This document shows positions 14,630-61,370 of a DNA stretch of 64,000 bases, one piece after another (positions within the stretch are counted from its first letter, which is position 1; the number at the start of each line of letters is the position of its first letter). This DNA is from Candidatus Omnitrophota bacterium (GTDB taxonomy: Bacteria; Omnitrophota; Gorgyraeia; Gygaellales; Profunditerraquicolaceae), in assembly GCA_041663665.1 (NCBI GenBank), contig JBAYMG010000001.1:1482-65481 (forward strand), read 5' to 3'. The notes under the pieces were generated by a model that was not told the DNA's origin, searched no databases, and was given only the letters and a program-made list of their open reading frames with translations. The translations under genes and the position numbers were made by a program.

Positions 14630-14688
14630 GTAGTATTTCTTTTGTAACTGTTTAGATTCAATTAGGTTGCGTACACTGTCTATTAAGC
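14630..14688 (+). repeat. ~60-bp IS-end-like repeat, solo copy C, ending 2 nt before the ATG at 14691
   Basis: ATTTCTTTTGTAACTG...GGTTGCGTACACTGTCTATTA. Confidence 0.55.
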
Positions 14689-14690
14689 CT

Positions 14691-15437: not shown

Positions 15438-15446
15438 GGAGAATAA

Positions 15447-20505: not shown

Positions 20506-20507
20506 GA

Positions 20508-21485: not shown

Positions 21486-21490
21486 GTGTT

Positions 21491-22663: not shown

Positions 22664-22667
22664 TACT

Positions 22668-23726: not shown

Positions 23727-23735
23727 GCTAATTTT

Positions 23736-28251: not shown

Positions 28252-28252
28252 A

Positions 28253-29865: not shown

Positions 29866-29985
29866 CCCAGTGCAAATATTTTCTCCCTTACCTGGAAGTA
29901 TATAGGGAGATAATATCTGACACACAAGAGGTCTATTTTGGGCATAGAGATATTGATTTTAAGTAGCAGAAATGTTGATTAAAAG

Positions 29986-30843: not shown

Positions 30844-30847
30844 AATA

Positions 30848-34831: not shown

Positions 34832-35637
34832 TCATCGTTAGATTGATAGGGGGGCTCGGGAATCAACTGTTTCAGTATGCCGCCGCGCGGCAGTTATCTA
34901 AAATTCATCAAACAGGGCTAAAGATCGATATTTCGGGATTTAAAGAATATAAAAACCATAGATATTCGTTGACGCACTTTAGTATAATCGAAGATTATAT
35001 TTCTAAAGAAGAGACTTTCGGGATCGAAGAAATAAAGGCAAAATATTTTCATTTCGATCCTGAATTTAGGGAAATACCAGATAATATTATTTTAACTGGT
35101 TATTGGCAGACAGAAAAATATTTTATCGGAATATCGGAAATTATCAGAGATGAGTTTACTGTGAAGTATCCATTGAAGGATAAAGATCTTGAAATCTCCC
35201 GATTGATCAAAGATTCTAATTCTGTCAGTATGCACATCCGGCGCTGTGATTATCTCCCTGGCACGTTCAAAGATCAAATTTTCGATTGTTTAAGCCCGGA
35301 TTATTATATTAATGCGGTTAAACGCTTATCCGAAGAAGAGAGTAATTTAGTGTTTTTCATATTTAGCGACGATCCGGAATGGTCCAAAGACAATATTAAA
35401 TTAGAATATCCATGTATATTTGTAGAACATAATACAGCTGATACAAATTATGAAGATCTTCGTTTAATGAGCCTGTGTAAGCATAGTATCATCGCTAACA
35501 GTTCCTTCGGTTGGTGGGGAGCCTGGTTAAATAAAAACCAAAATAAAAAAGTTTATGCCCCGAAAAGATGGTTTAATTCTAATGTCAGGAATTTAGACCC
35601 AAAAGATATCATACCTTCTGCCTGGATTAAGATATGA
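34828..35637 (+). CDS. GT11-family alpha-1,2-fucosyl(-like) transferase
   Basis: N-terminal MIIVRLIGGLGNQLFQYAAA is the GT11 signature. Confidence 0.7.
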   Translation: MIIVRLIGGLGNQLFQYAAARQLSKIHQTGLKIDISGFKEYKNHRYSLTHFSIIEDYISKEETFGIEEIKAKYFHFDPEFREIPDNIILTGYWQTEKYFIGISEIIRDEFTVKYPLKDKDLEISRLIKDSNSVSMHIRRCDYLPGTFKDQIFDCLSPDYYINAVKRLSEEESNLVFFIFSDDPEWSKDNIKLEYPCIFVEHNTADTNYEDLRLMSLCKHSIIANSSFGWWGAWLNKNQNKKVYAPKRWFNSNVRNLDPKDIIPSAWIKI

Positions 35638-37631
35638 AAAAAAAGTATAAAGATAAAGAACCTCTAAAGAAAATCAAAATTCAGGCAGTGCAATTTAATA
35701 ATTCGTACGATAAGAATGTGTTTATTCCCTATAGTGTGGGTGTATTGCAGGCTTTCAGCCAGAAGTACCGGCGGATCAAGGAGCATTTTGAGTTTTTGCC
35801 GTATTTATACCGACGGGGAGCTGTTGAGGAACTTGCGAAAAAAGCCAGTGGTGCGGATATCCTGTGCGTTTCTTGCTATATGTGGAACTGGAAATTGAAT
35901 ATGGCTTTACTCGCACGGGTCCGCCGGCTCAATGAACGCTGCCTTATTATTGTCGGTGGCCCCCAGGTCCCGGACGAAGCGGAGAACTTGTTTAAAGAAC
36001 ACTCGGAGATAGATATTGCTATTCATGGTGAGGGTGAGGAAACATTTCATGAGATCCTCAATACGTATCTTCAGAGGGGGGATTTTCGCGGAGTCAAGGG
36101 GATGTCTTACCATGACCGTCGAACCGGGGAGTTCTTTTATGGAGGAATGCGGCCGGAGATAGCTCGGCTTGATGATATTCCGTCTCCGTATCTAACGGGA
36201 GTTTTTGACCGGTTGATGGCCGATGACAAAGCCGATTGGGTTGCTTCCTGGGAAACCAACAGAGGGTGCCCTTTCTCCTGCACGTACTGTTATTGGGGGC
36301 GGCGCTCGCAGACATTACGCAATTTCAGTATGGACCGGTTGTTTGCGGAGATTGAATGGTTTGGTCAGAACGATATCCCTTTGATCTTTGGCTGTGATGC
36401 CAATTTTGGGATATCGAAACGGGATTTGGACCTGGTGAAACGGCTGGCCGGGACCAAGAAAAAACACGGTTATCCGCAAACCTTCAGGGTTTGCAATATG
36501 AAAAACAGCAATGATGTTGTTTTTGACGTCGAAAAAGTACTGCACGAATCCTGTATGTCTAAAGGGACATCGATAAGTTTCCAGAGTCTTTCTCCGAAAG
36601 TCCTGCATAATGTAAAACGTAAGAATATCCGTATAGATTTATTTCATACACTGCAGAAACGTTATATGAAAGCGGGAATGCCGACCTATACGGAAATAAT
36701 CATTGCCTTACCGGGCGAGACTTATGAGACATTCGTTAACGGCATCAATACCTTGCTGGAGAATGGCCAGCATAGCCAACTTCATCTTTATAATTGCACG
36801 ATTCTTGTGAATTCCGAAATGGGACAGGAAAGTTATTTGAAGAAATACGGGATAAAAACAGTCGAAGGCCCTATCTTTCAACAGCATGTGACGCCGGATA
36901 CATCCGTGGATCGCGTAACTGAGTATGAGAAAATCGTTGTGACCACTGATGCCATGTCTTTAGCTGACTGGCGACGAACTTATGAATTTGCCTGGGCCGT
37001 ACTCTGTTTTCATTGTTTGGGCATATTTCAGATGATTTCGGTTCTCATTTATGGGCGATATAGGATTTCTTACCGCGTGTTTTATGAATCATTAGTCATT
37101 TTTGCAAAAAGTAACCCGAAGAGCCTTATTGGCCGGGAACTCATCGCGCTTAACGATATCCTGGACAATGTTCTTAAGGGGATAGGTTTTGATCAATTCC
37201 TGCCGGAGTTCGGCGAAGTGAACTGGCCTTCTGAGGAGGCCACCTTTTTACGATTATCTAATGGTATTGATTTGTTATACGGGGAATGCAGGCAGTTTCT
37301 TAAATCTTTTTTTAAGGCGCAGCATATAAAACCGGATTTAGATATTCTTAACGATCTTTTAAAATATCAAAGGCAGCGGCTAGTGCATTATGACGACGAT
37401 TATAACTCTGATCATGTCTTTGTGCTTAATTTCAATATCGTAGAATACATTAATGCCGTTATGCAAGGAGAGTCCTGCTCTCTACGCCGCGGGAAAAAAT
37501 GGTATCGCATCGTACGTGATCAGAATTTTAATGGCGATAAAAAGCGATTCGCTCGGGAAGCCGTTTGGTATGGTCGCAAAGGCGGGAAATTTTTGTATGC
37601 GGTTTATTCCATTGCGAAACCGGTAAAATAA
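35634..37631 (+). CDS. cobalamin-binding radical SAM enzyme (class B-like), 665 aa, with an uncharacterised ~300-aa C-terminal extension
   Basis: N-terminal B12-binding-like Rossmann region followed by CxxxCxxC (RGCPFSCTYCYWG). It sits in a GC-richer block. Confidence 0.7.
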   Translation: MKKKYKDKEPLKKIKIQAVQFNNSYDKNVFIPYSVGVLQAFSQKYRRIKEHFEFLPYLYRRGAVEELAKKASGADILCVSCYMWNWKLNMALLARVRRLNERCLIIVGGPQVPDEAENLFKEHSEIDIAIHGEGEETFHEILNTYLQRGDFRGVKGMSYHDRRTGEFFYGGMRPEIARLDDIPSPYLTGVFDRLMADDKADWVASWETNRGCPFSCTYCYWGRRSQTLRNFSMDRLFAEIEWFGQNDIPLIFGCDANFGISKRDLDLVKRLAGTKKKHGYPQTFRVCNMKNSNDVVFDVEKVLHESCMSKGTSISFQSLSPKVLHNVKRKNIRIDLFHTLQKRYMKAGMPTYTEIIIALPGETYETFVNGINTLLENGQHSQLHLYNCTILVNSEMGQESYLKKYGIKTVEGPIFQQHVTPDTSVDRVTEYEKIVVTTDAMSLADWRRTYEFAWAVLCFHCLGIFQMISVLIYGRYRISYRVFYESLVIFAKSNPKSLIGRELIALNDILDNVLKGIGFDQFLPEFGEVNWPSEEATFLRLSNGIDLLYGECRQFLKSFFKAQHIKPDLDILNDLLKYQRQRLVHYDDDYNSDHVFVLNFNIVEYINAVMQGESCSLRRGKKWYRIVRDQNFNGDKKRFAREAVWYGRKGGKFLYAVYSIAKPVK

Positions 37632-48142: not shown

Positions 48143-49348
48143 ATGGATATTCAAAATCATAATCAGTTGAATTGTGCAGGCGAATCAAATGCTATTTTTT
48201 CTTCAAGTTATAATTTTAATAAATTATTTTTTACTATACTTTATTCGCTTTTTCTTGTTTTATCGTTAACTTCTTTTATCTGGGATATTGATACGCTGAT
48301 TAAAGTAAATGCCTTTATTGGTGTGTTTGTCTTTATCCTTTTAAACATCAGGATTAAAAAGGAATATATTCCGATATATGCGTATATCGGAATTCTTATC
48401 GCATCTTTTCTTGTTTCATCATTTTTTGTTGACCGGACAGGATGGCGATTTTTTACTCCGATTATTTTTATTTTGTCTAGTATTGGTCCTGCCATGATCC
48501 TGCTCAAGAGGTATGTTTATAGCTGGGGTGGATATGTGGTGTTTTATAGCTTAACTGGATATTTTTTGATGTTAATGTTATCTGGCGTTGATGGCAATTC
48601 TGCTTTGAGATTCTGCAGCTTTAATGGTATTTCGATTGTTATGCTGATCGCCTGTATCTCTTTATATATTATTTTGAACATGGAAGGTAAAAGAATTGAT
48701 CTAAAACCGGCAGTAATTACTTTTATTATTTTAATTTGGGGAATTGGCCGCTCTGGAATTATTTCAAGTTTTATACTTTTGCTTGGCCTATTGTTTATCA
48801 GGTTTCGGGCTAAGAAAAAATATATTTATATTATGATAATTTGTTTGTCCGCTCTTTTAATTCTCGCCTATTTGCGCTGGGAAACTTTGCTACTGTTTTT
48901 TAGGGATAACTCATTTTTAAAGAATGCGATTGATCATTATTTTAGAAGAGGAGGAGGTTGGGATTCTGTGCGTACGACTATTTGGATGAACTATTTTAAT
49001 AATTTAGATATATTCCGGGTTATGTTCGGCGTTAATGTAGTTACAGATCCATGGCCTGCTGGTGAACTTAACGAATATAATTATCACAATTCGTTTATAA
49101 ACCTTCATTCGCAAACGGGATTTATGGGTCTAGTTACCTTGGGAATAATGATTTTTGCGGCTTTTAAATTTTATAACACTAATAAGGCTTTTTTTATTTT
49201 ATTGTTGGTTCTAATTTTACGTTCTTCTACCGATTTGTTAATTTTCTTCGGCCGTTTTGATTTTATTCCATTTTTCTTTATCTTCTATTTTTTAAAAAAC
49301 CGGTCAGTTAAGGAACCTGCTACAGGAAATAGACTCAATCTAAACTGA
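48143..49348 (+). CDS. polytopic membrane protein, probable O-antigen polymerase (Wzy-like)
   Basis: 401 aa with about 10-11 TM helices and a periplasmic loop near the C-terminus. No enzymatic motifs. Confidence 0.45.
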   Translation: MDIQNHNQLNCAGESNAIFSSSYNFNKLFFTILYSLFLVLSLTSFIWDIDTLIKVNAFIGVFVFILLNIRIKKEYIPIYAYIGILIASFLVSSFFVDRTGWRFFTPIIFILSSIGPAMILLKRYVYSWGGYVVFYSLTGYFLMLMLSGVDGNSALRFCSFNGISIVMLIACISLYIILNMEGKRIDLKPAVITFIILIWGIGRSGIISSFILLLGLLFIRFRAKKKYIYIMIICLSALLILAYLRWETLLLFFRDNSFLKNAIDHYFRRGGGWDSVRTTIWMNYFNNLDIFRVMFGVNVVTDPWPAGELNEYNYHNSFINLHSQTGFMGLVTLGIMIFAAFKFYNTNKAFFILLLVLILRSSTDLLIFFGRFDFIPFFFIFYFLKNRSVKEPATGNRLNLN

Positions 49349-49349
49349 T

Positions 49350-50426
49350 ATGAAAAAAATATTGTTTGCTATCGGTTATTCAGCCCAGCTTGGGGGCGGC
49401 CAAAAAGTATTTGTAACTACTATTAAAGAGTTGTTAAAGATGGGTTGCCAGATTACTGTTATATTGCCTGATAAGTCTTTGGCCTCTTTTTTAAAATCGT
49501 TGGATATAAAAATTTATATCATAGATTTTCGTTCGATAAAATGCCTAGCCTCAATATGTAAAATATTAAAAGAGAGCGATTTTGATATTATTAATACTTA
49601 TCTACCCAAATGTAGCTTGCTTGTTTCGTTTGTTAATTTATTCTATCGCAGGCCTATTTGTTGTACTTTGCTTAATGCCATTATACATGAGAAGTTGAAT
49701 TGGTTTCAGAAGAATATTTATCCTTTATTATATTTTATCCTATCTAAGATGTGTGATGGGTTTATTGTAAATTCAGAGCACAATAAACAACATTTTATGA
49801 AAGTTTCCGGGATAGATGGTAATTTCATTAAAGTTATATATTCCGGAATTGATCTGGATGAATTTATGAATGTTCCTGAAGAAGTAAGGATGAAGGGTAA
49901 GCTCGTTTTAGGTTATGTTGGCCGGCTGTCACCTGAAAAAGGTCCTGATTACTTGTTAAAGTCTCTTGCTTATTTAAAAGATATTAATTATGAATGTTTA
50001 ATAGTTGGGGATGGTCCAATGAGGGGTGAGTTGGAGAAATATGCAGTAGTTAACGGGCTTGGAAGAAGGGTAAAATTTCTAGGCTACCAAGATGAGATTG
50101 CCCGGTTTATCAATAAGATGGATATTGTAGTAGTTCCTTCATTGAATGAAACGTTTGGATTGACTATTATTGAAACCTTTGCTTTAAAGAAGCCGGTAAT
50201 TGCATCTAATGTGGGTGGGATTCCGGAAGTAGTTATTCAAGGAGTGACTGGTTTTCTTTTTCCGGCAAAAGATCCTTTGGCTTTATCTGAGTGTGTGCTT
50301 CGCGCTTATAATAACAAAGAAGAAATTAAGGTAATGGGATCGCGGGCTTACGAATATGTTGTGCAGAACTTTTCAAGTTCAATTATGGCAAAAAATACGT
50401 TTGACTATCTTAAAACATTAGTATAA
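49350..50426 (+). CDS. family 4 (GT-B) glycosyltransferase
   Basis: GRLSPEKGPDYLL...PSLNETFGLTIIETFALKKPVIASNVGGIPEVV is the GT4 E-x7-E region. Confidence 0.75.
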   Translation: MKKILFAIGYSAQLGGGQKVFVTTIKELLKMGCQITVILPDKSLASFLKSLDIKIYIIDFRSIKCLASICKILKESDFDIINTYLPKCSLLVSFVNLFYRRPICCTLLNAIIHEKLNWFQKNIYPLLYFILSKMCDGFIVNSEHNKQHFMKVSGIDGNFIKVIYSGIDLDEFMNVPEEVRMKGKLVLGYVGRLSPEKGPDYLLKSLAYLKDINYECLIVGDGPMRGELEKYAVVNGLGRRVKFLGYQDEIARFINKMDIVVVPSLNETFGLTIIETFALKKPVIASNVGGIPEVVIQGVTGFLFPAKDPLALSECVLRAYNNKEEIKVMGSRAYEYVVQNFSSSIMAKNTFDYLKTLV

Positions 50427-50492: not shown

Positions 50493-51932
50493 ATGAAGAT
50501 ATTGATGTTGAATCCCCCATTTCTTCCTAAATTTTCGCGATTTTCCAGGAGCCCGGCAGTCACTAAAAGCGGAACAATTTATTATCCGATATGGCATGCC
50601 TATGCTACGGGTGTCTTGGAAAAGGAAGGGCATGAGGTGCGGTTAGTTGATGCTCCGGCAGAGAGGTTATCTAGAGAACAGTGTTATCAAATTGCCAAAG
50701 AATTTCAGCCCAAACTGGTTGTTATCTACACATCTACGCCAAGTATATATAATGATATTGAGATAGCCGGCCAGATTAAAGATTTATTAAAAGACAGCTT
50801 TATTGTTTTAACAGGCCCCCATGTTTCAGCTTTACCTGAAGAGTCTCTGAAAATAGATAAGAGGATAGACGCCATAGCGCGGCGTGAATACGATCAGACA
50901 TTAGTTGAATTAGCCGGAAAACTGGAAGCTAGGCAAAGTCTGATTGACCTTCGGGGGCTTACTTTACGGCTTGACCAAGAGATAAAATCAAATCCGGACA
51001 GAGAGTTGATTAATGATTTAGATTCTATTCCGTTTGTATCAGATGTTTATAAACGGCATTTAAAAATTGAAAACTATTTTTATGCTCACTGTAAGTATCC
51101 GGTAGTTTCTATATTTACTAGCCGGGGCTGCAATGCTCAATGTGATTACTGTGTTTATCCGCAGCAAATGTTTGGCAGACAGCAAAGACAAAGAATGCCT
51201 GAAAATATAGTTGCTGAATTTGAATATATTGAAAAAGAATTGCCTCAGATTAAAGAGGTGCTTATTGATGATGATACGTTTTCATTTAATCAAGAATATA
51301 TTATAAAATTTTGCCAGCTTATGCTACAAAAGAAAATTAAGCTTTCTTGGATTGTTGAGTGCCGTGCTAATTTAGGATATAAAACGATGGTGATGATGAA
51401 AAAAGCAGGGTGCCGGTTAATTGTTACCGGTTTTGAAAGCGCTGATAACCAAGTATTAAAGAATATTAAAAAAGGTCTGACGTTCGAAAGAATGAGGCAG
51501 TTTGTTCAGGATGCAAAGAAGGCGAAAATAGCTATTCATGCTTGTTTTATGGCTGGTAATAAGGGTGAAACAAAGGAAACATTGAAGAAATCTTTAAAAT
51601 TTGCCAAAGAAATTAATGCGGATACTTGTCAGTTTTTTCCCCTAATGGTTTATCCCGGTACGGAAGCTTATGATTGGGCAAAGACTAATAATTATTTAAC
51701 AACTGAAGATTTCAGGAATTGGTTAACTAGCGAGGGATTACATAATTGTGTAGTGAGCACTCCTGAGTTAAGTGCTAAAGAATTAGTCGATTTTTGCGAT
51801 CACGCAAGGAAGAATTATTATTTAAGCCTGAAATATATGGTGCATAAGTTTAAACAAGTATTATTTGTTCCGGGAGAATTTAAGAAAACTTTTAAATCTG
51901 CGAAAATATTTTTAAAATATTTGTTTCGTTAG
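50493..51932 (+). CDS. cobalamin-binding radical SAM enzyme (class B-like), 479 aa
   Basis: N-terminal B12-binding-like domain followed by the CxxxCxxC cluster motif (SRGCNAQCDYCVYP). Confidence 0.7.
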   Translation: MKILMLNPPFLPKFSRFSRSPAVTKSGTIYYPIWHAYATGVLEKEGHEVRLVDAPAERLSREQCYQIAKEFQPKLVVIYTSTPSIYNDIEIAGQIKDLLKDSFIVLTGPHVSALPEESLKIDKRIDAIARREYDQTLVELAGKLEARQSLIDLRGLTLRLDQEIKSNPDRELINDLDSIPFVSDVYKRHLKIENYFYAHCKYPVVSIFTSRGCNAQCDYCVYPQQMFGRQQRQRMPENIVAEFEYIEKELPQIKEVLIDDDTFSFNQEYIIKFCQLMLQKKIKLSWIVECRANLGYKTMVMMKKAGCRLIVTGFESADNQVLKNIKKGLTFERMRQFVQDAKKAKIAIHACFMAGNKGETKETLKKSLKFAKEINADTCQFFPLMVYPGTEAYDWAKTNNYLTTEDFRNWLTSEGLHNCVVSTPELSAKELVDFCDHARKNYYLSLKYMVHKFKQVLFVPGEFKKTFKSAKIFLKYLFR

Positions 51933-51948: not shown

Positions 51949-53109
51949 TTGATTCTGCTTGAAATAACTTTTTGGTTTGGTTTATTTTTATTATTTTATT
52001 CCTATATTGGTTATCCTTTGGTACTTATGTTTTTAAATAAAGTACTGGTCCGTAAAATTGCACTTAAGACGGAAACAATGAGGCAATTAACCGTGAGCAT
52101 CCTTATTGCTGCTTACAATGAAGAAGCAGTAATAAGGGGCAAGTTAAATAATTGCTTAGCACTTAATTATCCTTTTGAGCTTCTAGAGATTTATGTTGCC
52201 TCTGATGGTTCTTTGGATAGAACCAATGAAATTGTTAAAGGTTACATTCTGAAAGATAAAAGAGTCAAGCTATTAGATTTTTCTAGAGTTGGCAAAGCCA
52301 ATGTTTTGAATCAGGCAATGCCCAATATAAAAAGCGAGATTGTAATTTTTTCGGATGCTAATACGGAATATCTGCCTGATGTATTAATAAATTTGGTTAA
52401 GCACTTTACGGATGAAAAAGTAGGTTGTGTTTGCGGAAGGCTAATTTATAGAAATCCCGGAGAAATTGTCAGCGGTAAGGGAGAGAGTGCCTATTGGCGC
52501 TATGAAACTACATTGAAGAAGATGGAAAGTAGGCTTGGATATGTTGCTGGGGCTAACGGCGCTATTTATGCAATTAGGAGAGAGTTGTTTGATTCGTTAC
52601 CCTCAAAAACAATTAATGATGATTTTATGATTTCTATGAAAATTGTTGAGAAAGGATTCAAATGCATTTACGATGAAAATGCAGTTGCCTTTGAATATGT
52701 TGCCCCGACTATTGGTGGGGAATTTAAGCGGCATATCCGCGATGGCGCTGGCCACTATCTTGCAATTGGAAATCTTTTAGGGCTTTTAAATCCTTTTTTA
52801 GGGATAAGGGCCTTTATTTTTTGGTCGCATCGTATTCTAAGGTGGCTGGCTCCATTCATTCTTATTGTTCTTTTGTTGGCCAATGTTTTTCTTGCTAGCT
52901 TAAATTTCTATCAACATGTTTTGTATTTACAGGTGTTATTTTATGTTTTAGCTATAAGTGGATTATTGTTGGTTAAATATAAAAAGATTCCATTTATATT
53001 ATATGTGCCATTTTATTTTTGTAGCCTTAATTTGGCTCTTCTTATCGGTTTTGTAAAGGTAATTTCAGGCAATCAGAAGGTAACGTGGGACAGAACCGAA
53101 AGATTATAA
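51949..53109 (+). CDS. membrane-embedded family 2 glycosyltransferase (processive/NodC-IcaA-like architecture)
   Basis: An N-terminal TM helix and C-terminal TM bundle flank a GT-A domain (SILIAAYNEE...ASDGSLD...SDANTEY). TTG start after an AAGGAGG ribosome-binding site. Confidence 0.6.
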   Translation: MILLEITFWFGLFLLFYSYIGYPLVLMFLNKVLVRKIALKTETMRQLTVSILIAAYNEEAVIRGKLNNCLALNYPFELLEIYVASDGSLDRTNEIVKGYILKDKRVKLLDFSRVGKANVLNQAMPNIKSEIVIFSDANTEYLPDVLINLVKHFTDEKVGCVCGRLIYRNPGEIVSGKGESAYWRYETTLKKMESRLGYVAGANGAIYAIRRELFDSLPSKTINDDFMISMKIVEKGFKCIYDENAVAFEYVAPTIGGEFKRHIRDGAGHYLAIGNLLGLLNPFLGIRAFIFWSHRILRWLAPFILIVLLLANVFLASLNFYQHVLYLQVLFYVLAISGLLLVKYKKIPFILYVPFYFCSLNLALLIGFVKVISGNQKVTWDRTERL

Positions 53110-53202
53110 AGATATAAGTTTCTTATGAAATAGTTAATTCCAATTATTTTAGTTAGATCTTGTCTTCTTTTCTGTCTATTGGTAATAGAAAGGAAGGCGA
53201 AG

Positions 53203-53484
53203 ATGAATGATAAAGAGATTTCGATAGAACTATTGGTAACTAAAATTTTGTTGGTGAGAGGTAAAAAAGAAGCGGTAGACGATATGCTCCATATGTCTTT
53301 ACAGAGCAAGGGGTTGCAATGCTCTCAGTAGTTTTGAATTCTGAACGACTTAGCCGAAAAACTCGATGAACTAAACCGTAAATATCAATTGCACGAAACT
53401 GATATTCAAGTAATATCCGAAGCAATTAAGAAATTACTTGAGCCTCCACCTGAACCGCCAAAACCACGCTTTGGATTAAATTAA
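53203..53484 (+). pseudogene. disrupted small ORF (~93 codons) with in-frame TAG (53329) and TGA (53335) inside a 414-bp gap
   Basis: [91 protein letters not shown] all lies in one frame and is preceded by an AAGGAAGG ribosome-binding site. Confidence 0.25.
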
Positions 53485-53523
53485 AAACTAGACGCGTCCC
53501 CTGATTTTTAGTATACTATTTCA

Positions 53524-54084
53524 ATGAAACGTATTATTGATTTAATCACCGCAGTTTTCCTATTGGTATGCTTGAGTTTACCGTTAATTGTGCTTGCCGT
53601 AATTATTAAATTGACCTCCCCTGGGCCGGTGTTATACTGGTCTGATCGCGTTGGAAAGAATAATCAGATATTTAAAATGTGTAAATTCCGTACAATGCGC
53701 ATGGATGCTCCGGCAGTTGCCACCCATCTTTTTAAGGACGCTGAGCATTATCTTACTTTCGTCGGTTCATTTTTACGTAAATTTAGTTTAGATGAACTGC
53801 CGCAATTGTTTAATATAGTATTAGGCAATATGACTTTTGTAGGGCCCCGGCCGGCATTGTTTAATCAGGATGATTTGATAACGTTAAGGACTCAAAAGAA
53901 GGTGCATTTTCTTACCCCGGGAGTTACCGGATGGGCGCAGATTAATGGTAGAGATGAGCTGCCGATTCCTGTAAAAGTTGAATTTGATGAATATTATTTA
54001 AAGAATAAAAGCTTATTTTTAGATGCAAAAATTATAATGCTCACAGTGTTTAAGGTTATAAAAAAAGAAGGCGTAGCTCATTAG
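53524..54084 (+). CDS. small monotopic phosphoglycosyl transferase (PglC/WbaP C-terminal-domain family), initiating enzyme
   Basis: Single N-terminal membrane helix followed by the bacterial sugar-transferase motifs (DELPQLFNVLxGxMSxVGPRP-like: DELPQLFNIVLGNMTFVGPRP). Confidence 0.75.
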   Translation: MKRIIDLITAVFLLVCLSLPLIVLAVIIKLTSPGPVLYWSDRVGKNNQIFKMCKFRTMRMDAPAVATHLFKDAEHYLTFVGSFLRKFSLDELPQLFNIVLGNMTFVGPRPALFNQDDLITLRTQKKVHFLTPGVTGWAQINGRDELPIPVKVEFDEYYLKNKSLFLDAKIIMLTVFKVIKKEGVAH

Positions 54085-54089
54085 TAATT

Positions 54090-55937
54090 ATGAAAAAAGC
54101 TTACAAGGCATTTATATTAAAATATCGCCGCTGGATTATTATATCTACGCATGTGTTTTTGGTGGCATTGTCTTACTATTTCTCTTTTGTTTTACGATTT
54201 GATTGTAATTTACCCGCCGATTATTTCAATGTTTTTATTAAAACATTGCCTTTCTTGCTACTGATTAAACTTTCAATTTTTTATTATTTTGGTTTATTCC
54301 GCGGGCTTTGGAAGTATGTCAGCATGTACGATCTTAAACAAATAATAAAAGCTAATATAATCGCTACTGTGGTTTTTATTTTGGGTGCTGTTTTTCTATA
54401 TGGAACTAGTATTATACCAAGGTTCATCTTTGTAAACGATTTCATTATCTGTTTATTTTTTATCGGCGGGATACGTTTTTTAACCCGCATTATCCGGGAG
54501 CGATACCGCTCTCCGCTTTTAAAAAATGAGCAGATTAATGTTCTTATTGTTGGGGCTGGTGAGGCTGGCATATTGCTTTTGAAAGAATATAAGCGTAACC
54601 CGGCGTTGGGAGAGGTGGTTGGTTTTATTGATGATGATAAATCAAAGCTGAATGAAGCTATCGAAGGGGTGCGGATTTTAGGGAATAGGAATGCTATTTC
54701 CAAGGTGGCTAAGGATTATGATGTAGATGAAATTGTTTTAGCTATTCCTTCAGCCAAGGGCGAGGTAGTTAGGGATTTAATTGCTTGCTGCAATGCGCCC
54801 AATATTAAGTTAAAAATTGTTCCGGGTTTAAGTAAAATCATTAGTGGCGAAATAAAGATAAACTTAAGAGAGGTAAGGCCCGAGGATCTTTTGGGCAGGG
54901 AAACCGTAAATATTGATGAGTGTCAGATAGCTAAATATTTAAAAGATAAGAAAGTGCTAGTTACCGGTGCTGCCGGCTCAATCGGTTCGGAGCTGTGCAG
55001 GCAGGTAGCTTTACGTTTCCATCCGGCAGAACTTATTTTAATTGATCATAATGAAAATAATCTTTATTTTTTAATACTTGAGCTTAAAGCTAAGTTTAAG
55101 GATTTAAACATCAAATCAGTTATCGGAGACATCACTGATATCGGCCTCTTAAAGAAAGTTTTTTCTGAATGCAAGCCTCAGGTAGTTTTTCACGCCGCAG
55201 CTTATAAGCATGTGCCGCTGATGGAGGAAAATCAGATATCCGCGGTAAGGAATAATGCTTTGGGTACCAGGAATATGATTTATGCAGCGCATCACTATAA
55301 GGTGGATAGATTTGTTTTGATTTCAACTGATAAAGCTGTAAATCCGGTAAATGTGATGGGATTAACTAAAAGATTAGCCGAAATATTCCTGCAGGCCAAA
55401 GCCCGGAACAGCAAAACTAAATTTATGGCAGTGCGTTTTGGCAATGTTTTGGGTTCTGACGGAAGCGTTGTGCCTTTATTTAAAAAACAAATAGAAGCCG
55501 GCGGGCCGATAACTATTACCCATCCGGATACTACGCGTTATTTTATGAGTATAAAAGAAGCCGTGCTTTTGGTGCTGCAGGCAGGAGCCATTGGAGTAGG
55601 CGGTGAGATATTTATTCTGGACATGGGAGAGCAAATTAAGATCCTTGATTTAGCCCGCGATTTAGTTTCGTTGTCCGGGTTAGAGCTGGGTAAAGATATT
55701 GGTTTAGAGTATATCGGTTTGCGCCCGGGAGAAAAAATCCGGGAGGAACTATTACTGGATAGGGAAAAGGACAAAGTTACAAAGCATAATAAGATTTATG
55801 TCAGCCAAGCTGATGAGCTTGATGTTGTTGCTTTAAGGAAACAAATGAAAGAATTAGAGGGGTATGTTAATTTAACAGATGTCGAGAAGGCTGTTAAGAA
55901 AATGAAAGAAATAGTCGGCAAAAGCCATGTTAAATAA
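54090..55937 (+). CDS. membrane-anchored UDP-HexNAc 4,6-dehydratase (PglF/CapD/WbpM family)
   Basis: Four N-terminal TM helices and two Rossmann domains (VLIVGAGEAG; VLVTGAAGSIGSEL...YKHVPLME). Confidence 0.8.
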   Translation: MKKAYKAFILKYRRWIIISTHVFLVALSYYFSFVLRFDCNLPADYFNVFIKTLPFLLLIKLSIFYYFGLFRGLWKYVSMYDLKQIIKANIIATVVFILGAVFLYGTSIIPRFIFVNDFIICLFFIGGIRFLTRIIRERYRSPLLKNEQINVLIVGAGEAGILLLKEYKRNPALGEVVGFIDDDKSKLNEAIEGVRILGNRNAISKVAKDYDVDEIVLAIPSAKGEVVRDLIACCNAPNIKLKIVPGLSKIISGEIKINLREVRPEDLLGRETVNIDECQIAKYLKDKKVLVTGAAGSIGSELCRQVALRFHPAELILIDHNENNLYFLILELKAKFKDLNIKSVIGDITDIGLLKKVFSECKPQVVFHAAAYKHVPLMEENQISAVRNNALGTRNMIYAAHHYKVDRFVLISTDKAVNPVNVMGLTKRLAEIFLQAKARNSKTKFMAVRFGNVLGSDGSVVPLFKKQIEAGGPITITHPDTTRYFMSIKEAVLLVLQAGAIGVGGEIFILDMGEQIKILDLARDLVSLSGLELGKDIGLEYIGLRPGEKIREELLLDREKDKVTKHNKIYVSQADELDVVALRKQMKELEGYVNLTDVEKAVKKMKEIVGKSHVK

Positions 55938-57195
55938 AGATAAGATTTTTTTATATCTAGATTGGGCAATAATCGCTTCTTTGTGTATTTTGTTTTTTTG
56001 CCTGCCATTTGCAAAGGCCGGAGCCGAAAGTTTTACTCTGCTTGCCTTTTTCTTATGGATAATAAAGAAGATATTAGGGTACCGCGTCGAGGCACTATGG
56101 GGGATGTTGCCTAGAACTGAATTAAACAAAGTTTTGGCGATATTTATCGCAGCTAACGCGTTATCAGTGATTTTTAGTTCTCATCTGGGTTTATCTTTGC
56201 GGGCATTTTTCGGTAAAGAATTGAAATTTCTAGCTATATATTTTATGTTGGTTGAAGTTATTAATAGTAAGAAACGCCTTAAAGTTGTTTTAATTACAGT
56301 TATTGTTTCTGCGCTATTGTTAGTTCTTGATGCCGGTGTGCAGTATTCTAGAGGATTAGATTTTTTAAGAGGTTTCCCGTTAAACCGGCTTACTGCTTCT
56401 TTTCAAACCGCGAACGGTTTTGCTGGTTGGTTAATTGTAGTTATTTTATTGTTTTTAGGCCTGTTAATTTCAGATAAAATTATAGGTAAGGGATTAAAGG
56501 TTCTATTATTAATGTTAATCCCGTTGTTAGGGGGTTGCTTATTAGGAACTTACGCGCGTGGTGCCTGGTTGGGTTTTGCAATCGGAGTTTTTTTCATAGT
56601 TGTATACGCTTTTAAAGGTTTTTCATTCAAAATTAAGTTATTATGCGTATCTATTAGTGTGTTTTTTTTAGCTACCTGTTTAATTTTTCCGCAGGCTTTG
56701 TTGTCTAGGGTTAAGGCTCTTGGCCGGATTAATTTTAAATCCAGCGAAACAGTTAATGCACGAGTAAAATCAACATTAAAAATTGATGCAGGCTCAACCC
56801 CGATTAGATTAAAGCTCTGGAAGGAAGCTTTGAGGATAACCAGGGATTATCCTCTCTTTGGCTGTGGATTAAATACTTATTCTAAAATTGGGCCAAAGTA
56901 CAAAAGTTTTGATTGGGGAGGAGTGTATCCGCATAATTCTTATTTGCAGATGTCAGCGGAAATTGGTTTAATCGGTTTATTTGCTTTTCTTTGGGTTTTG
57001 TTTAGTTTTTTTAAGGTAGGGCTGCGGCATTTTAACCAGAAAAAAGATTATCTGGCTTTGGGGCTTTTAGCCGGTATTTTAGCATTTTTAGTACATGCTT
57101 TTTTTGACACACATCTTTATTCTTTACAATTAGTAGTTTTATTTTGGTATATGCTTGGATTGACGGTTGCAGTGATTAAGCTAAATCTTGAATAA
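55927..57195 (+). CDS. O-antigen ligase family (Wzy_C domain) membrane protein
   Basis: 422 aa and polytopic, with a large periplasmic loop before the last TM helices, which is typical of WaaL or Wzy_C proteins. Confidence 0.5.
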   Translation: MLNKDKIFLYLDWAIIASLCILFFCLPFAKAGAESFTLLAFFLWIIKKILGYRVEALWGMLPRTELNKVLAIFIAANALSVIFSSHLGLSLRAFFGKELKFLAIYFMLVEVINSKKRLKVVLITVIVSALLLVLDAGVQYSRGLDFLRGFPLNRLTASFQTANGFAGWLIVVILLFLGLLISDKIIGKGLKVLLLMLIPLLGGCLLGTYARGAWLGFAIGVFFIVVYAFKGFSFKIKLLCVSISVFFLATCLIFPQALLSRVKALGRINFKSSETVNARVKSTLKIDAGSTPIRLKLWKEALRITRDYPLFGCGLNTYSKIGPKYKSFDWGGVYPHNSYLQMSAEIGLIGLFAFLWVLFSFFKVGLRHFNQKKDYLALGLLAGILAFLVHAFFDTHLYSLQLVVLFWYMLGLTVAVIKLNLE

Positions 57196-57226
57196 AGAGA
57201 TTATCTATGGTTTAAAAAAAAGTATT

Positions 57227-57955
57227 ATGAAAAAAATAAAACCGAATCATTTGCTTGAAGCAGTAGTTAATATTTTTGCCAATCTTCCAAGAGGTAAGGT
57301 ATTAGATTTAGGTTGTGGTGATGGAGATTATGCCAAGAGATTAAAAGATCTGGGTTTTGATGTTATTGCAGGCGATATCGATTTAGATAGGTTTAAATAT
57401 AGAAATGATATCGAATTTAAGCTTTGCGACATAACCAGGGAAATGCCGTTTGTTGCTAATTATTTTGATTATGTTTTATTAATGGAGGTCGTAGAGCATT
57501 TAAGAAATCCGTATATAGTTATTCCTGAGATTAATAGGATTATTAAGAATAACGGCTCCTTGGTTTTATCAACTCCTAATATATTAAATCTTAAATCAAG
57601 GTTTCGTTTTCTCTTTGAAGGTGCTTATGAGTATTTTAGAGAGCCGCCGTTAGATCAAGCGAAAAACAAAAAAGAAGTTATTTTTAATTTACATCTTGTC
57701 CCATATAGATATCAGGAATTAGAGTATTTATTGTCGGTGAGCGGATTTAAGGTTTATAAAATTTTTACTAGTATCTATGAATGGTTTGGTTTAGGGTTTG
57801 TTCTTCCAATTATTTTTTTCCAAGCCTGGATAAAAGAAAAGCGAGCAATAAAAAAAGGCGGTATAGATTATAAAAGAATAAATAAAAATTTATTATCCAA
57901 GGAGTTGCTTTTTGGCAGGCATTTAATTGTGCAGTCCAAGAAATATTCGGTTTAA
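57227..57955 (+). CDS. class I SAM-dependent methyltransferase
   Basis: VLDLGCGDGDYAKRL and DVIAGDID motifs. I chose the ATG at 57227; the tracker's TTG start at 57188 overlaps the preceding stop. Confidence 0.55.
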   Translation: MKKIKPNHLLEAVVNIFANLPRGKVLDLGCGDGDYAKRLKDLGFDVIAGDIDLDRFKYRNDIEFKLCDITREMPFVANYFDYVLLMEVVEHLRNPYIVIPEINRIIKNNGSLVLSTPNILNLKSRFRFLFEGAYEYFREPPLDQAKNKKEVIFNLHLVPYRYQELEYLLSVSGFKVYKIFTSIYEWFGLGFVLPIIFFQAWIKEKRAIKKGGIDYKRINKNLLSKELLFGRHLIVQSKKYSV

Positions 57956-57972
57956 AATTATCGGAGGCACTA

Positions 57973-58749
57973 ATGAAAGTTGTAATTTTAGCAGGCGGCA
58001 GGGGCACGCGGATTAGCGAGGAAACAGAGGTTTTACCAAAACCGATGGTTGAAATCGGCGGCAAGCCGATGCTTTGGCATATTATGAAGATATATTCCAG
58101 TTATGGATTTAATGAATTCATAATTTGCCTAGGCTATAAAGGTTACCTGGTAAAAGAATATTTTTCCCATTATCTTATGCATATGAGCGATATTACGATC
58201 GATTTATCTAAGAATAAAACTGAGATTCATTCTACTGTTTCTGAGCCTTGGAAGATAACTTTAGTAGACACGGGGTTAGATTCTATGACCGGCGGAAGGT
58301 TAAGAAGAGTTCAAAAATATATCGGCAATGAACCGTTTTTGCTTACCTATGGCGATGGTTTGTCGGATGTGAATATAGGCAAACTGGTTGATTTTCATAA
58401 AGAAAGTAATAATTTAGCTACTTTAACTGCAATACAGAATGCCGGAAGATTTGGCGTATTAGACCTGGATTCGAAAGCTAAAGTTACTTCGTTTCTTGAG
58501 AAGCCAAAAGATGAAAGCGGGTGGATTAACGGTGGATTTTTTGTTTTAGAGCCTAAGGTTTTTGATTTTATTCCTAATAGCGATTCTGTTGTTTGGGAGA
58601 GAGAGCCATTGGAAAATCTAGCTAAGCAGGGCAAGCTAAACGCTTTTAAACACAATGGTTCTTGGAGCTGCATGGATACTTTAAGAGATAAAATTGAATT
58701 GGAGCGGACTTGGCAATCCGGCCAGGCTTTCTGGAAAGTTTGGGAATGA
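57973..58749 (+). CDS. rfbF: glucose-1-phosphate cytidylyltransferase
   Basis: MKVVILAGGRGTRISEETEVLPKPMVEIGGKPMLWHIMKIYS is canonical RfbF/DdhA. GGAGG ribosome-binding site. Confidence 0.85.
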   Translation: MKVVILAGGRGTRISEETEVLPKPMVEIGGKPMLWHIMKIYSSYGFNEFIICLGYKGYLVKEYFSHYLMHMSDITIDLSKNKTEIHSTVSEPWKITLVDTGLDSMTGGRLRRVQKYIGNEPFLLTYGDGLSDVNIGKLVDFHKESNNLATLTAIQNAGRFGVLDLDSKAKVTSFLEKPKDESGWINGGFFVLEPKVFDFIPNSDSVVWEREPLENLAKQGKLNAFKHNGSWSCMDTLRDKIELERTWQSGQAFWKVWE

Positions 58750-60475: not shown

Positions 60476-60476
60476 A

Positions 60477-61364: not shown

Positions 61365-61370
61365 AATACT

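What the first reader, a model, noticed from the sequence alone, without database searches (positions are those of the whole stretch)
50493..51932. Second cobalamin-binding radical SAM enzyme between a GT4 and a membrane GT2
This is a 479-aa rSAM with a B12-binding domain. It lies in the same operon as the glycosyltransferases and the Wzy-like polymerase. Two B12-rSAM enzymes in one O-antigen or capsule locus is unusual and suggests that radical chemistry decorates the repeat unit.
Basis: partly seen in the sequence, partly recalled or inferred. Interest (0 to 1): 0.65.

Follow-up and report, generated by a model that had tools for sequence, protein, structure and literature searches.

The report
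HpnJ-like radical SAM enzyme paired with glycosyltransferase
The gene is real and encodes an uncharacterised radical enzyme whose closest studied relative is HpnJ (thought to contract a sugar ring on hopanoid lipids); across many anaerobic bacteria it sits directly upstream of one particular membrane glycosyltransferase in surface-sugar gene clusters, which suggests an unknown radical modification of a surface sugar.

Summary
ORF 50493-51932 (+) encodes a 479-aa protein with a B12-binding-type Rossmann domain, a radical SAM domain and a CNAQCDYC cluster motif. It lies in a roughly 53-kb one-strand Wzx/Wzy-type glycan locus of a Candidatus Omnitrophota MAG.

The interpretation needs changing. 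The two B12-type rSAMs in the window are unrelated: the first is KedN5-like (a methylase subfamily). The target is closest by far to HpnJ, the proposed hopanoid ring-contraction enzyme (415 bits; next family 158). It falls below the HpnJ cutoff (577.6), is about 37% identical to true HpnJ, and has no hopanoid genes nearby.

The target belongs to a very large clade that is 69-82% identical across phyla. It forms a tight pair with the downstream 4-TM GT2 (51949-53109):
- The GT2 follows the rSAM in 23 of 25 loci that include downstream DNA, usually after a gap of 0-30 nt.
- In the reciprocal search, all nine loci with a close GT2 homolog and usable upstream DNA carried the rSAM.
- A natural rSAM-GT2 fusion exists in Megalodesulfovibrio gigas, in a related clade.

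Most likely the rSAM radically modifies the sugar that this GT2 installs on a lipid-linked glycan. An HpnJ-type rearrangement is favoured over C-methylation, but neither is proven. Cobalamin binding is also untested.

The parts
50493..51932 (+). HpnJ-like two-domain radical SAM enzyme (479 aa), the finding itself
   Evidence: TIGR03471 HpnJ 415.4 bits over the full length (cutoff 577.6). AF2 model pLDDT 89.1.
50553..50912 (+). N-terminal Rossmann 'B12-binding' domain (aa 21-140)
   Evidence: Pfam PF02310, 54.3 bits against cutoff 32.1. Profile alignments to TokK and CysS reach into this domain, whereas AprD4 aligns only from aa 199. Cobalamin binding itself is untested.
51114..51605 (+). Radical SAM core (aa 208-371)
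   Evidence: Pfam PF04055, 66.5 bits. The SAM-motif positions D259-D261, G313/E315 and G355/G358/E359 are invariant in both the target clade and HpnJ.
51129..51152 (+). CxxxCxxC [4Fe-4S] motif, CNAQCDYC (aa 213-220)
   Evidence: C213, C217 and C220 are invariant in 89 aligned sequences.
51949..53109 (+). Partner membrane GT2 ('GT2m', 386 aa; 1 N-terminal + 3 C-terminal TM helices)
   Evidence: Pfam Glycos_transf_2, Glyco_tranf_2_3 and Glyco_transf_21. TM prediction. AF2 pLDDT 89.6; best fold match PcManGT 6yv7, then BcsA and hyaluronan synthases. Lies directly downstream of the rSAM in 23 of 25 loci.
49350..50426 (+). GT4 glycosyltransferase directly upstream
   Evidence: Pfam. Homologs of 50-65% identity sit directly upstream of the rSAM in L009, L018, L030 and L032. 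A GT4-rSAM fusion, P0164, exists.
53524..54084 (+). Small PglC-type priming phosphoglycosyl transferase (186 aa)
   Evidence: Pfam Bac_transf, 196 bits. This or a WecA-type PGT follows GT2m in about 20 related loci.
54090..55937 (+). PglF/WbpM-type membrane UDP-HexNAc 4,6-dehydratase (615 aa)
   Evidence: Pfam Polysacc_synt_2, 384 bits, plus CoA_binding_3. Conserved in 18 of 28 loci one gene beyond GT2m.
48143..49348 (+). Wzy-like polytopic membrane protein
   Evidence: Weak Wzy_C match, 28.5 bits, below cutoff 31.7.
55927..57195 (+). Wzy_C-domain protein (O-antigen ligase, polymerase or O-oligosaccharyltransferase-like)
   Evidence: Pfam Wzy_C, 75 bits. Weak NCBIfam matches to IctB and TfpM.
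35634..37631 (+). The 'first' B12-type rSAM (665 aa), KedN5-like and unrelated to the target
   Evidence: CPFSCTYC at aa 212. NCBIfam KedN5 subfamily 272 bits (cutoff 700) against HpnJ 65 bits.

Best explanation
SHOWN. The ORF is a genuine, intact gene for a soluble two-domain enzyme (Rossmann B12-type domain plus radical SAM barrel with all cluster and SAM motifs). It belongs to a very large, uncharacterised and strongly conserved clade of HpnJ-like enzymes. In a related clade a natural fusion shows the same rSAM-then-GT2 arrangement. The pair usually sits just upstream of the priming phosphoglycosyl transferase and a PglF/WbpM-type dehydratase in Wzx/Wzy-type surface-glycan loci of anaerobic bacteria from several phyla. 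It is co-inherited as a tight, probably translationally coupled pair with one specific 4-TM, minimal cellulose-synthase-like GT2.

INFERRED. At the cytoplasmic face of the inner membrane, the GT2 adds a hexose or HexNAc-type residue to a lipid-linked acceptor. That acceptor is most simply the Und-PP-linked first sugar made by the adjacent PGT. The rSAM then reductively cleaves SAM, and the 5'-deoxyadenosyl radical abstracts a hydrogen atom from that newly installed residue.

By analogy with its closest characterised relative HpnJ, and with the mechanism proposed for calditol synthase, I favour a redox-neutral rearrangement. In that scheme H-abstraction at C5 opens the pyranose, and C1-C5 recombination gives a carbocyclic five-membered cyclitol. 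This turns the glycosidic acetal into an acid- and glycosidase-resistant ether.

The claim that the rSAM modifies the sugar handled by its partner GT2 in a lipid-linked glycan pathway deserves about 0.75-0.8 confidence. The specific ring-contraction chemistry deserves about 0.35-0.4. The confidence figure given below is for the whole statement.
For: HpnJ is by far the closest curated family: 415 bits over the full length (1-477 against 1-467 of 472), with the next family, BchE, at 158 bits and methylase families at 119 bits or less.

The target is 36-40% identical to bona fide HpnJ. P0152 scores 776 bits on the HpnJ model, and sources name its relatives HpnJ. Ninety-two alignment columns are conserved in both clades, many of them polar (H110, H199, R291, H349, Q380, Y387-T390).

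Pairing with GT2m is strong:
- GT2m (41-69% identity) lies directly downstream in 23 of 25 genome or metagenome loci that include downstream DNA, with a typical gap of 0-30 nt.
- In the reciprocal search starting from GT2m, all nine loci with a homolog of at least 56% identity and usable upstream DNA had the rSAM upstream.
- Percent identities of the two proteins co-vary, r = 0.88 over 22 pairs, not corrected for phylogeny.

A natural rSAM-GT2 fusion in the same order exists in the closed genome of Megalodesulfovibrio gigas (P0127, WP_021761728.1). It has C-terminal TM helices and lies next to Wza- and Wzz-like genes.

The GT2m fold best matches PcManGT, then BcsA, hyaluronan synthase and Chs1. 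It passes the Pfam Glyco_transf_21 cutoff (41.3 bits against 21.7), and its homologs carry Chitin_synth_1 hits. PF13506 was built around ceramide glucosyltransferase, a lipid glycosyltransferase (my own knowledge).

The HpnJ precedent is a radical SAM enzyme that acts after a GT2 (HpnI) has put a hexosamine on a membrane lipid (PMC13459092, PMC9204698).
Against: The target fails the HpnJ trusted cutoff (415 against 577.6). True HpnJ ranks only 32nd among the 50%-identity cluster representatives, so many uncharacterised clades are nearer.

HpnJ itself has never been reconstituted. Ring contraction is inferred from a deletion phenotype (PMC13459092).

Published similarity networks place the methylases Fom3 and MoeK5 in the same sub-cluster as HpnJ (PMC9204698). 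I could not obtain their sequences to compare.

GT2m is not an HpnI ortholog: HpnI scores 16-25 bits against 79-86 for PgaC. No HpnK-like or other deacetylase is present in the 64-kb window or conserved in related loci, whereas Geobacter hpnJ is followed by a YdjC gene.

The best structural match is AprD4, a sugar diol dehydratase that does not use cobalamin.

The acceptor of GT2m and the order of the two steps are not established by anything done here.
Confidence: 0.42

Rival explanations
1. It is a cobalamin-dependent (class B) radical SAM C-methyltransferase. It would put a methyl group on an unactivated carbon of a sugar, either on the nucleotide sugar used by GT2m or on the lipid-linked residue. 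MoeK5 does this on a lipid-linked uronic acid, and GenK does it on an aminoglycoside sugar.
For: Most characterised B12-rSAM enzymes are methylases (PMC9204698, PMC12931638). The B12-type domain passes the Pfam cutoff, and profile alignments to the methylases TokK and CysS reach into the Rossmann domain. A published SSN co-clusters Fom3 and MoeK5 with HpnJ at a stringent threshold (PMC9204698). The locus is rich in methylation functions: five class I methyltransferase genes (28966, 43832, 47066, 57188 and the NanM-like 38694), a sugar C-methyltransferase (18281), and a KedN5-like rSAM.
Against: Every curated methylase family scores far below HpnJ: PhpK 119, HpnR 102, Sden_1168 90, KedN5 51 and TsrM 23 bits against 415. 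The locus already has a separate KedN5-like candidate C-methylase and a TylC3-type C-methyltransferase. In two independent 50%-identity clusters, relatives are fused to a class I SAM methyltransferase (P0123, P0161). That fusion is easier to explain if the rSAM does something other than methylate.
Confidence: 0.25
2. It is a cobalamin-independent sugar radical enzyme of the AprD4/DesII type. It would act as a 1,2-diol dehydratase, deoxygenase, deaminase or epimerase on the GT2m sugar, and the Rossmann domain would serve only as a scaffold.
For: AprD4 bound to its aminosugar substrate is the best sequence hit in the PDB (68 bits; 105 bits with the profile) and the best fold hit (TM 0.71-0.78 over the full length). 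AprD4 carries a Rossmann-like domain but does not bind cobalamin (PMC12931638).
Against: Identity to AprD4 is only 21-22%. The AprD4 NCBIfam model scores 79 bits against a cutoff of 500 and covers only aa 196-432. The sequence alignment to AprD4 stops at aa 199, whereas the N-terminal domain matches the Pfam B12-binding model above its cutoff and aligns to TokK and CysS. No conserved partner reductase (AprD3-like) accompanies the pair.
Confidence: 0.13
3. The pair does not decorate the repeat unit. Instead it makes a separate membrane glycolipid. GT2m would glycosylate a membrane lipid alcohol, and the rSAM would convert the head group into an ether-linked cyclitol. This would be a hopanoid-independent analogue of BHT cyclitol ether or calditol lipids, possibly serving as a glycan anchor.
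For: Both known or proposed ring-contracting relatives (HpnJ, Cds) act on lipid head groups (PMC13459092). GT2m passes the cutoff for Glyco_transf_21, a family built around ceramide glucosyltransferase (my own knowledge), and weakly matches CruG and HpnI, which glycosylate lipid alcohols. The pair moves as a cassette independent of the variable GT, Wzy and Wzx genes.
Against: The pair is embedded in glycan loci in every case examined, almost always immediately upstream of the priming PGT and PglF-type genes or next to export genes. A frequently adjacent GT4, and a GT4-rSAM fusion, point to further glycosyl extension. No lipid-synthesis genes are conserved nearby.
Confidence: 0.12

Closest known systems
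[quoted passage not shown]
   Same: Same two-domain architecture and length, colinear end to end. 36-40% identity. 92 columns conserved in both clades, including the cluster and SAM motifs and many polar residues. By far the best-scoring curated family at 415 bits. Both are functionally tied to a membrane GT2 that acts at the membrane.
   Different: The target scores below the equivalog cutoff (577.6). It sits in Wzx/Wzy glycan loci rather than hopanoid loci. The partner GT2 is PgaC- or PcManGT-like, not HpnI. No YdjC (HpnK) deacetylase is nearby. There are 64 fixed residue differences, including the QFFPLM 380-385 segment against QASLAS in HpnJ. TIGR03471 hits above the cutoff are reported only in genomes that have SHC and HpnH (bioRxiv 10.1101/2025.07.29.667474).
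Calditol synthase Cds (Sulfolobus acidocaldarius)
   Same: A radical SAM enzyme proposed to contract a lipid-linked hexose into an ether-linked cyclopentane polyol after glycosyl transfer. This is the same chemical logic proposed here (PMC13459092).
   Different: It is an archaeal GDGT-lipid head-group enzyme.
AprD4 (PDB 6fd2), the radical SAM 1,2-diol dehydratase of apramycin biosynthesis
   Same: It is the best solved-structure match by sequence and by fold, and it acts on an aminosugar ring.
   Different: Only 21-22% identity. Sequence similarity is confined to the rSAM and C-terminal halves. AprD4 does not bind cobalamin (PMC12931638), whereas the target's N-terminal domain matches the B12-binding model.
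Class B rSAM sugar C-methyltransferases (GenK, MoeK5) and KedN5-type methylases
   Same: Same superfamily architecture. They act on sugars, and MoeK5 acts on a lipid-linked sugar. The first rSAM of the window belongs to the KedN5-like subfamily.
   Different: The target's scores against methylase models are 23-119 bits against cutoffs of 500-700. No direct comparison with GenK or MoeK5 was possible.
PcManGT (PDB 6yv7) and the minimal cellulose-synthase-like membrane GT2s; PgaC and NodC
   Same: The partner GT2m shares the GT-A domain plus a 4-helix membrane bundle (TM-score 0.70-0.78 to PcManGT). PgaC is its best NCBIfam match.
   Different: GT2m scores 86 bits against the PgaC cutoff of 422. 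The Q(R/Q)xRW position reads RHIRD, with R264 and D265 invariant across 55 homologs (read from the sequence). This argues against a processive synthase. Donor and acceptor are unknown.

Membership tests
HpnJ equivalog (TIGR03471) | Whole-protein score at or above the curated cutoff of 577.6 bits | tested here: not met
   The target scores 415.4 bits. A true HpnJ control, P0152, scores 776 bits.
HpnJ equivalog (TIGR03471) | Full-length colinear B12-type Rossmann plus radical SAM architecture of about 470 aa | tested here: met
   The alignment covers 1-477 against 1-467 of 472. Identity to HpnJ sequences is 36-40% over the full length.
HpnJ equivalog (TIGR03471) | Genomic association with hopanoid genes (shc, hpnH, hpnI, hpnK/YdjC) | tested here: not met
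   None is present in the 64-kb window or among the gene families recurring in related loci. The G. metallireducens hpnJ control is followed by a YdjC gene.
HpnJ equivalog (TIGR03471) | Catalyses pyranose-to-cyclitol ring contraction | not testable with these tools
   This needs biochemistry. It has not been shown in vitro even for HpnJ (PMC13459092).
Radical SAM superfamily | CxxxCxxC [4Fe-4S] motif and SAM-binding motifs in a partial TIM barrel | tested here: met
   C213, C217 and C220 are invariant, as are DDD 259-261, G313/E315 and G355/G358/E359. Pfam PF04055 scores 66.5 bits. The AF2 model shows the barrel.
Cobalamin-dependent (class B) radical SAM enzymes | N-terminal Rossmann domain matching the B12-binding family | tested here: met
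   PF02310 scores 54.3 bits against cutoff 32.1. Profile alignments to TokK and CysS extend into the domain.
Cobalamin-dependent (class B) radical SAM enzymes | Actually binds and requires cobalamin | not testable with these tools
   AprD4, the best fold match, has a Rossmann-like domain without cobalamin (PMC12931638), so the domain match alone is not proof.
Class B rSAM methyltransferases (PhpK, HpnR, KedN5, TsrM, Sden_1168 models) | Score above a curated cutoff for any methylase family | tested here: not met
   Scores are 119/600, 102/650, 51/700, 23/500 and 90/575. GenK, Fom3 and MoeK5 could not be compared directly.
AprD4 family diol dehydratase (NF033070) | Score at or above 500 bits over the full length | tested here: not met
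   79 bits, covering aa 196-432 only.
Wzx/Wzy-dependent surface glycan (O-antigen or EPS) locus | Co-located flippase, polymerase or ligase, chain-length regulator, priming PGT and nucleotide-sugar genes | tested here: met
   Wzz 16311, Wzx-type 40562, Wzy_C 55927 (and a weak one at 48143), Bac_transf 53524, PglF-like 54090, rml, GMD and nonulosonic-acid genes. Whether the product is an O-antigen, a capsule or a protein glycan was not resolved.
HpnI (TIGR03472) and PgaC (TIGR03937), for the partner GT2 | Score above the curated cutoff | tested here: not met
   HpnI scores 16-25 bits against 310. PgaC scores 79-86 bits against 422.

The most novel reading that the evidence does not exclude
Surface polysaccharides or LPS of many uncultured anaerobes (Omnitrophota, Desulfobacterota, Ignavibacteriota, Planctomycetota, Bacillota and others) may contain a carbocyclic, ether-linked cyclitol residue. 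It would be made after glycosyl transfer, when this HpnJ-like enzyme contracts the ring of a sugar on the lipid-linked intermediate. That would be the first carbasugar-forming step found in a Wzx/Wzy-type glycan pathway. It would also mean that HpnJ/Cds-type chemistry is a general glycan-hardening strategy rather than a speciality of lipid head groups.
Probability: 0.3. Interest if true: 0.8.

Novelty: new variant of a known kind. Interest (0 to 1): 0.6.

Why it matters
HpnJ-type enzymes are known only from hopanoid side chains, and only genetically. This work identifies a much larger, very strongly conserved sister group that has been recruited to surface-glycan assembly and is locked to a dedicated membrane glycosyltransferase.

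This matters for three reasons:
- It defines a tractable two-protein system, and even a single-polypeptide fusion in the cultured, fully sequenced Megalodesulfovibrio gigas, for finally working out what HpnJ-like chemistry is and what cobalamin does in non-methylating class B rSAM enzymes.
- It predicts an unrecognised sugar modification in the envelopes of abundant anaerobes. If the modification is a ring contraction, the linkage would resist acid and glycosidases, with consequences for phage and immune recognition and for preservation of glycans in sediments.
- It shows that generic or misleading database names for these proteins, such as 'BchE', 'YgiQ' and 'radical SAM protein', hide a coherent functional module.

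Tried and rejected
1. Are the two rSAMs of the window paralogs? Rejected. The first is KedN5-like, and the two aligned only below the 50% coverage filter.
2. Is GT2m an HpnI ortholog, making the pair a displaced hpnIJ pair? Rejected. HpnI scores 16-25 bits against 79-86 for PgaC.
3. Is there an HpnK-like, PIG-L or Polysacc_deac_1 deacetylase in the window or conserved near the pair? None was found. Only L003 and L004 carry a Polysacc_deac_1 gene, about 8 kb upstream.
4. Promoter and terminator scans of 44.7-58 kb gave only chance-level counts, so they say nothing about operon limits.
5. The 414-nt gap between GT2m and the PGT gene has no ORF of 80 aa or more, no blastx or blastn similarity to related loci, and no repeat elsewhere in the window.
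6. A sequence search of the PDB found nothing closer than AprD4.
7. A literature search for cobalamin rSAM enzymes in O-antigen clusters found nothing relevant.
10. Exceptions to the pairing are L020 (followed by a GT9 gene and another rSAM) and L021 (GT4, a soluble GT2 and a methyltransferase). Both are still glycan loci. Distant GT2m relatives (36-41% identity) in L040 and L042 lack the rSAM.
Full report
OBSERVATION. The ORF at 50493-51932 (+) is present exactly as described: an ATG start, 479 codons, and a GGAG sequence about 9 nt upstream. Pfam finds a B12-binding domain (aa 21-140, 54.3 bits, cutoff 32.1) and a Radical_SAM domain (aa 208-371, 66.5 bits, cutoff 29.5). The cluster motif is CNAQCDYC at aa 213-220. 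The protein is 100% identical to an NCBI entry named 'radical SAM protein [Candidatus Omnitrophota bacterium]' on a 280-kb MAG contig. The neighbours are as stated. A GT4 lies upstream (49350-50426, gap 66 nt). A GT2 lies downstream (51949-53109, gap 16 nt) with one N-terminal and three C-terminal hydrophobic helices. A weak Wzy-like gene lies at 48143-49348.

THE LOCUS. All 58 sizeable ORFs of the window are on the + strand.
- Positions 1-8.7 kb are housekeeping genes: proB, proA, nadD, rpe, a phosphomutase, ribosomal protein S1, TyrRS and an IS200-like Y1 transposase.
- From about 9.7 kb to at least 62.4 kb runs one very large glycan locus.
- It begins with rml-type genes, Wzz (16311), a GDP-mannose dehydratase and a TylC3-type sugar C-methyltransferase (18281).
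- Next comes a complete legionaminic-type nonulosonic acid block (19534-28969), followed by FkbM, HisF, HisH and WbuX.
- Then GT2, DegT and GT11 genes, a first B12-type rSAM (35634-37631), and a GFO-type oxidoreductase.
- Then a NanM-like O-methyltransferase, an epimerase, a Wzx-type flippase (40562) and several further GT and methyltransferase genes.
- The block of interest follows: Wzy-like, GT4, rSAM, GT2m, PglC-type PGT (53524), PglF-type dehydratase (54090) and a Wzy_C protein (55927).
So 'O-antigen or capsule-type locus' is confirmed, but which kind of glycan it makes is not resolved. Promoter and terminator scans are at chance level. Co-transcription is therefore inferred from spacing only.

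WHAT THE PROTEIN IS. Against NCBIfam the best hit by a wide margin is TIGR03471 HpnJ: 415.4 bits, E 3e-124, colinear over the whole length. It is nevertheless below the equivalog cutoff of 577.6. The next family is BchE at 158 bits. All curated methylase families score 23-119 bits against cutoffs of 500-700.

An exhaustive search of representatives clustered at 50% identity found 4161 clusters with E below 1e-30. I scanned ten representatives of different sub-clusters. Only P0152 is a true HpnJ (776 bits); the others score 253-435 bits. P0152 is 100% covered by proteins that sources name HpnJ, from Geobacter, Geotalea and Trichlorobacter. It is 36-37% identical to the target and ranks 32nd in the representative list. 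The target therefore belongs to one of many uncharacterised HpnJ-like clades. It is not the HpnJ equivalog.

A preprint reports that TIGR03471 hits above the cutoff occur only in genomes with SHC and HpnH (10.1101/2025.07.29.667474). This supports the specificity of that cutoff.

In an 89-sequence alignment (54 from the target clade, 35 HpnJ), 92 columns are conserved in both clades. They include the Cys triad, DDDTF 259-263 at the GGE position, G313xE315, the GxIxGxxE-like 352-359 motif, and many polar residues. Sixty-four columns are fixed differently in the two clades, for example QFFPLM 380-385 against QASLAS.

STRUCTURE. An AF2 model is confident (pLDDT 89.1, pTM 0.89). Against the PDB the best match is AprD4, a radical SAM 1,2-diol dehydratase bound to an aminosugar (TM 0.71-0.78, 21-22% identity). 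The genuine cobalamin enzymes TsrM, MgmA, CysS, OxsB and TokK follow. AprD4 does not bind cobalamin (PMC12931638). By sequence, AprD4 aligns only to aa 199-431, whereas the CysS and TokK alignments reach back to aa 85-97 in the Rossmann domain. Cobalamin binding is therefore plausible but unproven.

THE KEY FINDING IS AN OBLIGATE PARTNER. It is also unusually conserved. The 120 best hits are all full length and 69-82% identical, and those with a source name include Omnitrophota, Smithella and 'Deltaproteobacteria'.

A scan of one genome per species found 21 loci, all from MAGs. They include Melioribacter (82%), Omnitrophota, many Desulfobacterota or 'Deltaproteobacteria', Bdellovibrionales, Phycisphaerae (55%), Bacillota (53%) and Nitrospirae.

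In 23 of 25 genome and metagenome loci that include downstream DNA, a homolog of the window's GT2 ('GT2m', 41-69% identical) follows the rSAM directly. The gap is mostly 0-30 nt. The percent identities of the two proteins co-vary (r = 0.88, 22 non-redundant pairs, not corrected for phylogeny).

The reciprocal test started from GT2m in metagenomes. All nine loci with a GT2m homolog of at least 56% identity and usable upstream DNA carry the rSAM upstream. At 36-41% identity, one of three does.

Downstream of the pair there is usually a priming transferase (PglC-type in 6 loci, WecA-type in 14) and a PglF/WbpM-type dehydratase (18 loci). Upstream genes vary and include GT4, Wzy_C, GT9, Wzx and DUF218. 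The two exceptions, L020 and L021, are still glycan loci.

Natural fusions reinforce the link. P0127 (842 aa, 43% identical to the target) is an rSAM-GT2 fusion with C-terminal TM helices. It comes from the closed genome of Megalodesulfovibrio gigas DSM 1382 (WP_021761728.1) and lies next to Wza-like and Wzz-like genes. P0164 is a GT4-rSAM fusion, in the same gene order as the window. P0123 and P0161 are rSAM-class I methyltransferase fusions.

THE PARTNER GT2. GT2m is not HpnI (16-25 bits) and not a PgaC equivalog (79-86 bits against 422). It passes the Pfam Glyco_transf_21 cutoff, and its homologs carry Chitin_synth_1 hits. Its AF2 model (pLDDT 89.6) best matches PcManGT. From my own knowledge, that protein was described as a non-processive, minimal cellulose-synthase-like membrane GT2 acting on lipid-linked acceptors. 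BcsA, hyaluronan synthases and Chs1 follow. The QxxRW position reads RHIRD, and R264 and D265 are invariant in 55 homologs. This argues against a processive synthase; that last step is my inference.

MECHANISM. Shown: an intact radical SAM enzyme of the HpnJ-like group, genetically locked to a membrane GT2, inside surface-glycan loci and next to the priming enzymes.

Inferred: GT2m installs a hexose or HexNAc-type residue on a lipid-linked acceptor at the cytoplasmic membrane face, and the rSAM modifies that residue by 5'-dA radical chemistry. The chemistry is not determined.

I favour an HpnJ/Cds-type redox-neutral ring contraction. In that scheme C5-H abstraction, ring opening and C1-C5 coupling give an ether-linked cyclopentitol (mechanism as proposed in PMC13459092). 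My reasons are that HpnJ is the only characterised relative within reach and that the GT2-then-rSAM logic is shared.

The case is weak in several ways:
- HpnJ has never been reconstituted.
- Fom3 and MoeK5, both methylases, co-cluster with HpnJ in a published SSN.
- No deacetylase accompanies the pair, whereas Geobacter hpnJ is followed by a YdjC gene. The mechanism proposed for Cds on glucose needs no amine, so this is not decisive.
- The best fold match is a dehydratase.
I therefore give about 0.75-0.8 to 'modifies the GT2m sugar in a lipid-linked glycan pathway' and about 0.35-0.4 to ring contraction specifically. C-methylation gets about 0.25, AprD4-like chemistry about 0.13, and a separate glycolipid pathway about 0.12.

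THE FIRST rSAM. ORF 35634-37631 (665 aa, CPFSCTYC at aa 212) matches the KedN5 methylcobalamin-dependent C-methyltransferase subfamily (272 bits, below cutoff 700) and HpnJ at only 65 bits. The two rSAMs of the window are thus independent recruitments. About ten related Desulfobacterota loci carry yet another B12-type rSAM immediately upstream of the HpnJ-like gene. It is 25-28% identical to the target, and BchE and ApyD are its best-scoring families. Multiple B12-type rSAMs per glycan locus are therefore a recurring feature of these anaerobes.

NOVELTY AND VERDICT. Nothing in the searchable literature describes this clade or its pairing. Source annotations are generic or wrong: 'YgiQ', 'anaerobic Mg-protoporphyrin cyclase', 'radical SAM protein'. 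It is best described as a new variant of a known kind, namely an HpnJ-like enzyme recruited with a dedicated membrane GT2 to surface-glycan assembly. Interest is moderate to high (0.6). The chemistry is unknown and could be unusual, and a cultured organism with a single-polypeptide fusion makes it directly testable.

Noticed in passing
window 35634-37631 (+): The first B12-type rSAM is 665 aa long. Only aa 31-412 match the KedN5-like C-methyltransferase model, so a C-terminal extension of about 250 aa has no family match. It sits in a stretch of higher GC (0.42-0.44 at 36-44 kb, against 0.32-0.39 elsewhere), which suggests the locus is a mosaic.
   Followed up: partly
representative proteins P0131, P0138, P0144, P0170 (not in the window): Several HpnJ-like rSAM representatives carry LAGLIDADG-type inteins inserted just after the CxxxCxxC region of the radical SAM domain. 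Finding inteins in a glycan or lipid tailoring enzyme family is curious.
   Followed up: no
representative proteins P0123, P0161 (725 aa) and P0164 (814 aa): Relatives of the target occur fused to a class I SAM methyltransferase. That domain is 29% identical to the window's methyltransferase at 57188-57955. Another relative is fused to a GT4, in the same order as the window's GT4-rSAM genes.
   Followed up: partly
L003 6578-8020 and equivalent positions in L009, L011, L013, L014, L016, L017, L019, L022, L026, L029: A second, distant B12-type rSAM lies immediately upstream of the HpnJ-like gene in many Desulfobacterota-type loci, often after a GT9 gene. It is about 480 aa long and 25-28% identical to the target. 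BchE and ApyD are its best-scoring families.
   Followed up: partly
window 53110-53523: There is a 414-nt non-coding gap between GT2m and the PGT gene. It has no ORF of 80 aa or more, no similarity to related loci and no repeat in the window. In relatives, the PGT gene follows GT2m closely or overlaps it in some loci (e.g. L005, L036). In others (L007, L008, L030) 1.3-3.4 kb of extra sequence lies between them. The gap may hold an internal promoter.
   Followed up: partly
window 19534-32760 (+): A complete legionaminic-type nonulosonic acid pathway is present: a dehydratase, an aminotransferase, a CBS-NTP transferase, a PglD-like acetyltransferase, NeuB, NeuC, an SDR, a GFO-type oxidoreductase and a CMP-synthetase. 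It is followed by FkbM, HisF, HisH and WbuX, an acetamidino-forming set.
   Followed up: no
window 57973-62414 (+): The 3' end of the glycan locus carries an NTP-transferase, a 4,6-dehydratase-type SDR, a metallo-beta-lactamase-fold protein and a DmpF/DmpG-like acetaldehyde dehydrogenase plus 4-hydroxy-2-oxovalerate aldolase pair. This is an unusual set for a sugar locus and may build a branched or C-extended sugar.
   Followed up: no
window 8005-8691 and 13697-16196 (+): An IS200-like Y1 transposase sits at the boundary between housekeeping genes and the glycan island. A RhuM-family protein, an ORF with no family match and a papain-like cysteine protease are inserted between the rml-type genes and Wzz.
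   Followed up: no
window 48143-49348 and 55927-57195 (+): There are two Wzy_C-type polytopic proteins in one locus, one weak (28.5 bits) and one strong (75 bits, with faint IctB and TfpM similarity). One may be the polymerase and the other a ligase or an O-oligosaccharyltransferase.
   Followed up: no
window 1-64000: Every sizeable ORF is on the + strand, and GC skew is positive in every 2-kb window. This fits a single long co-oriented stretch on the leading strand.
   Followed up: no
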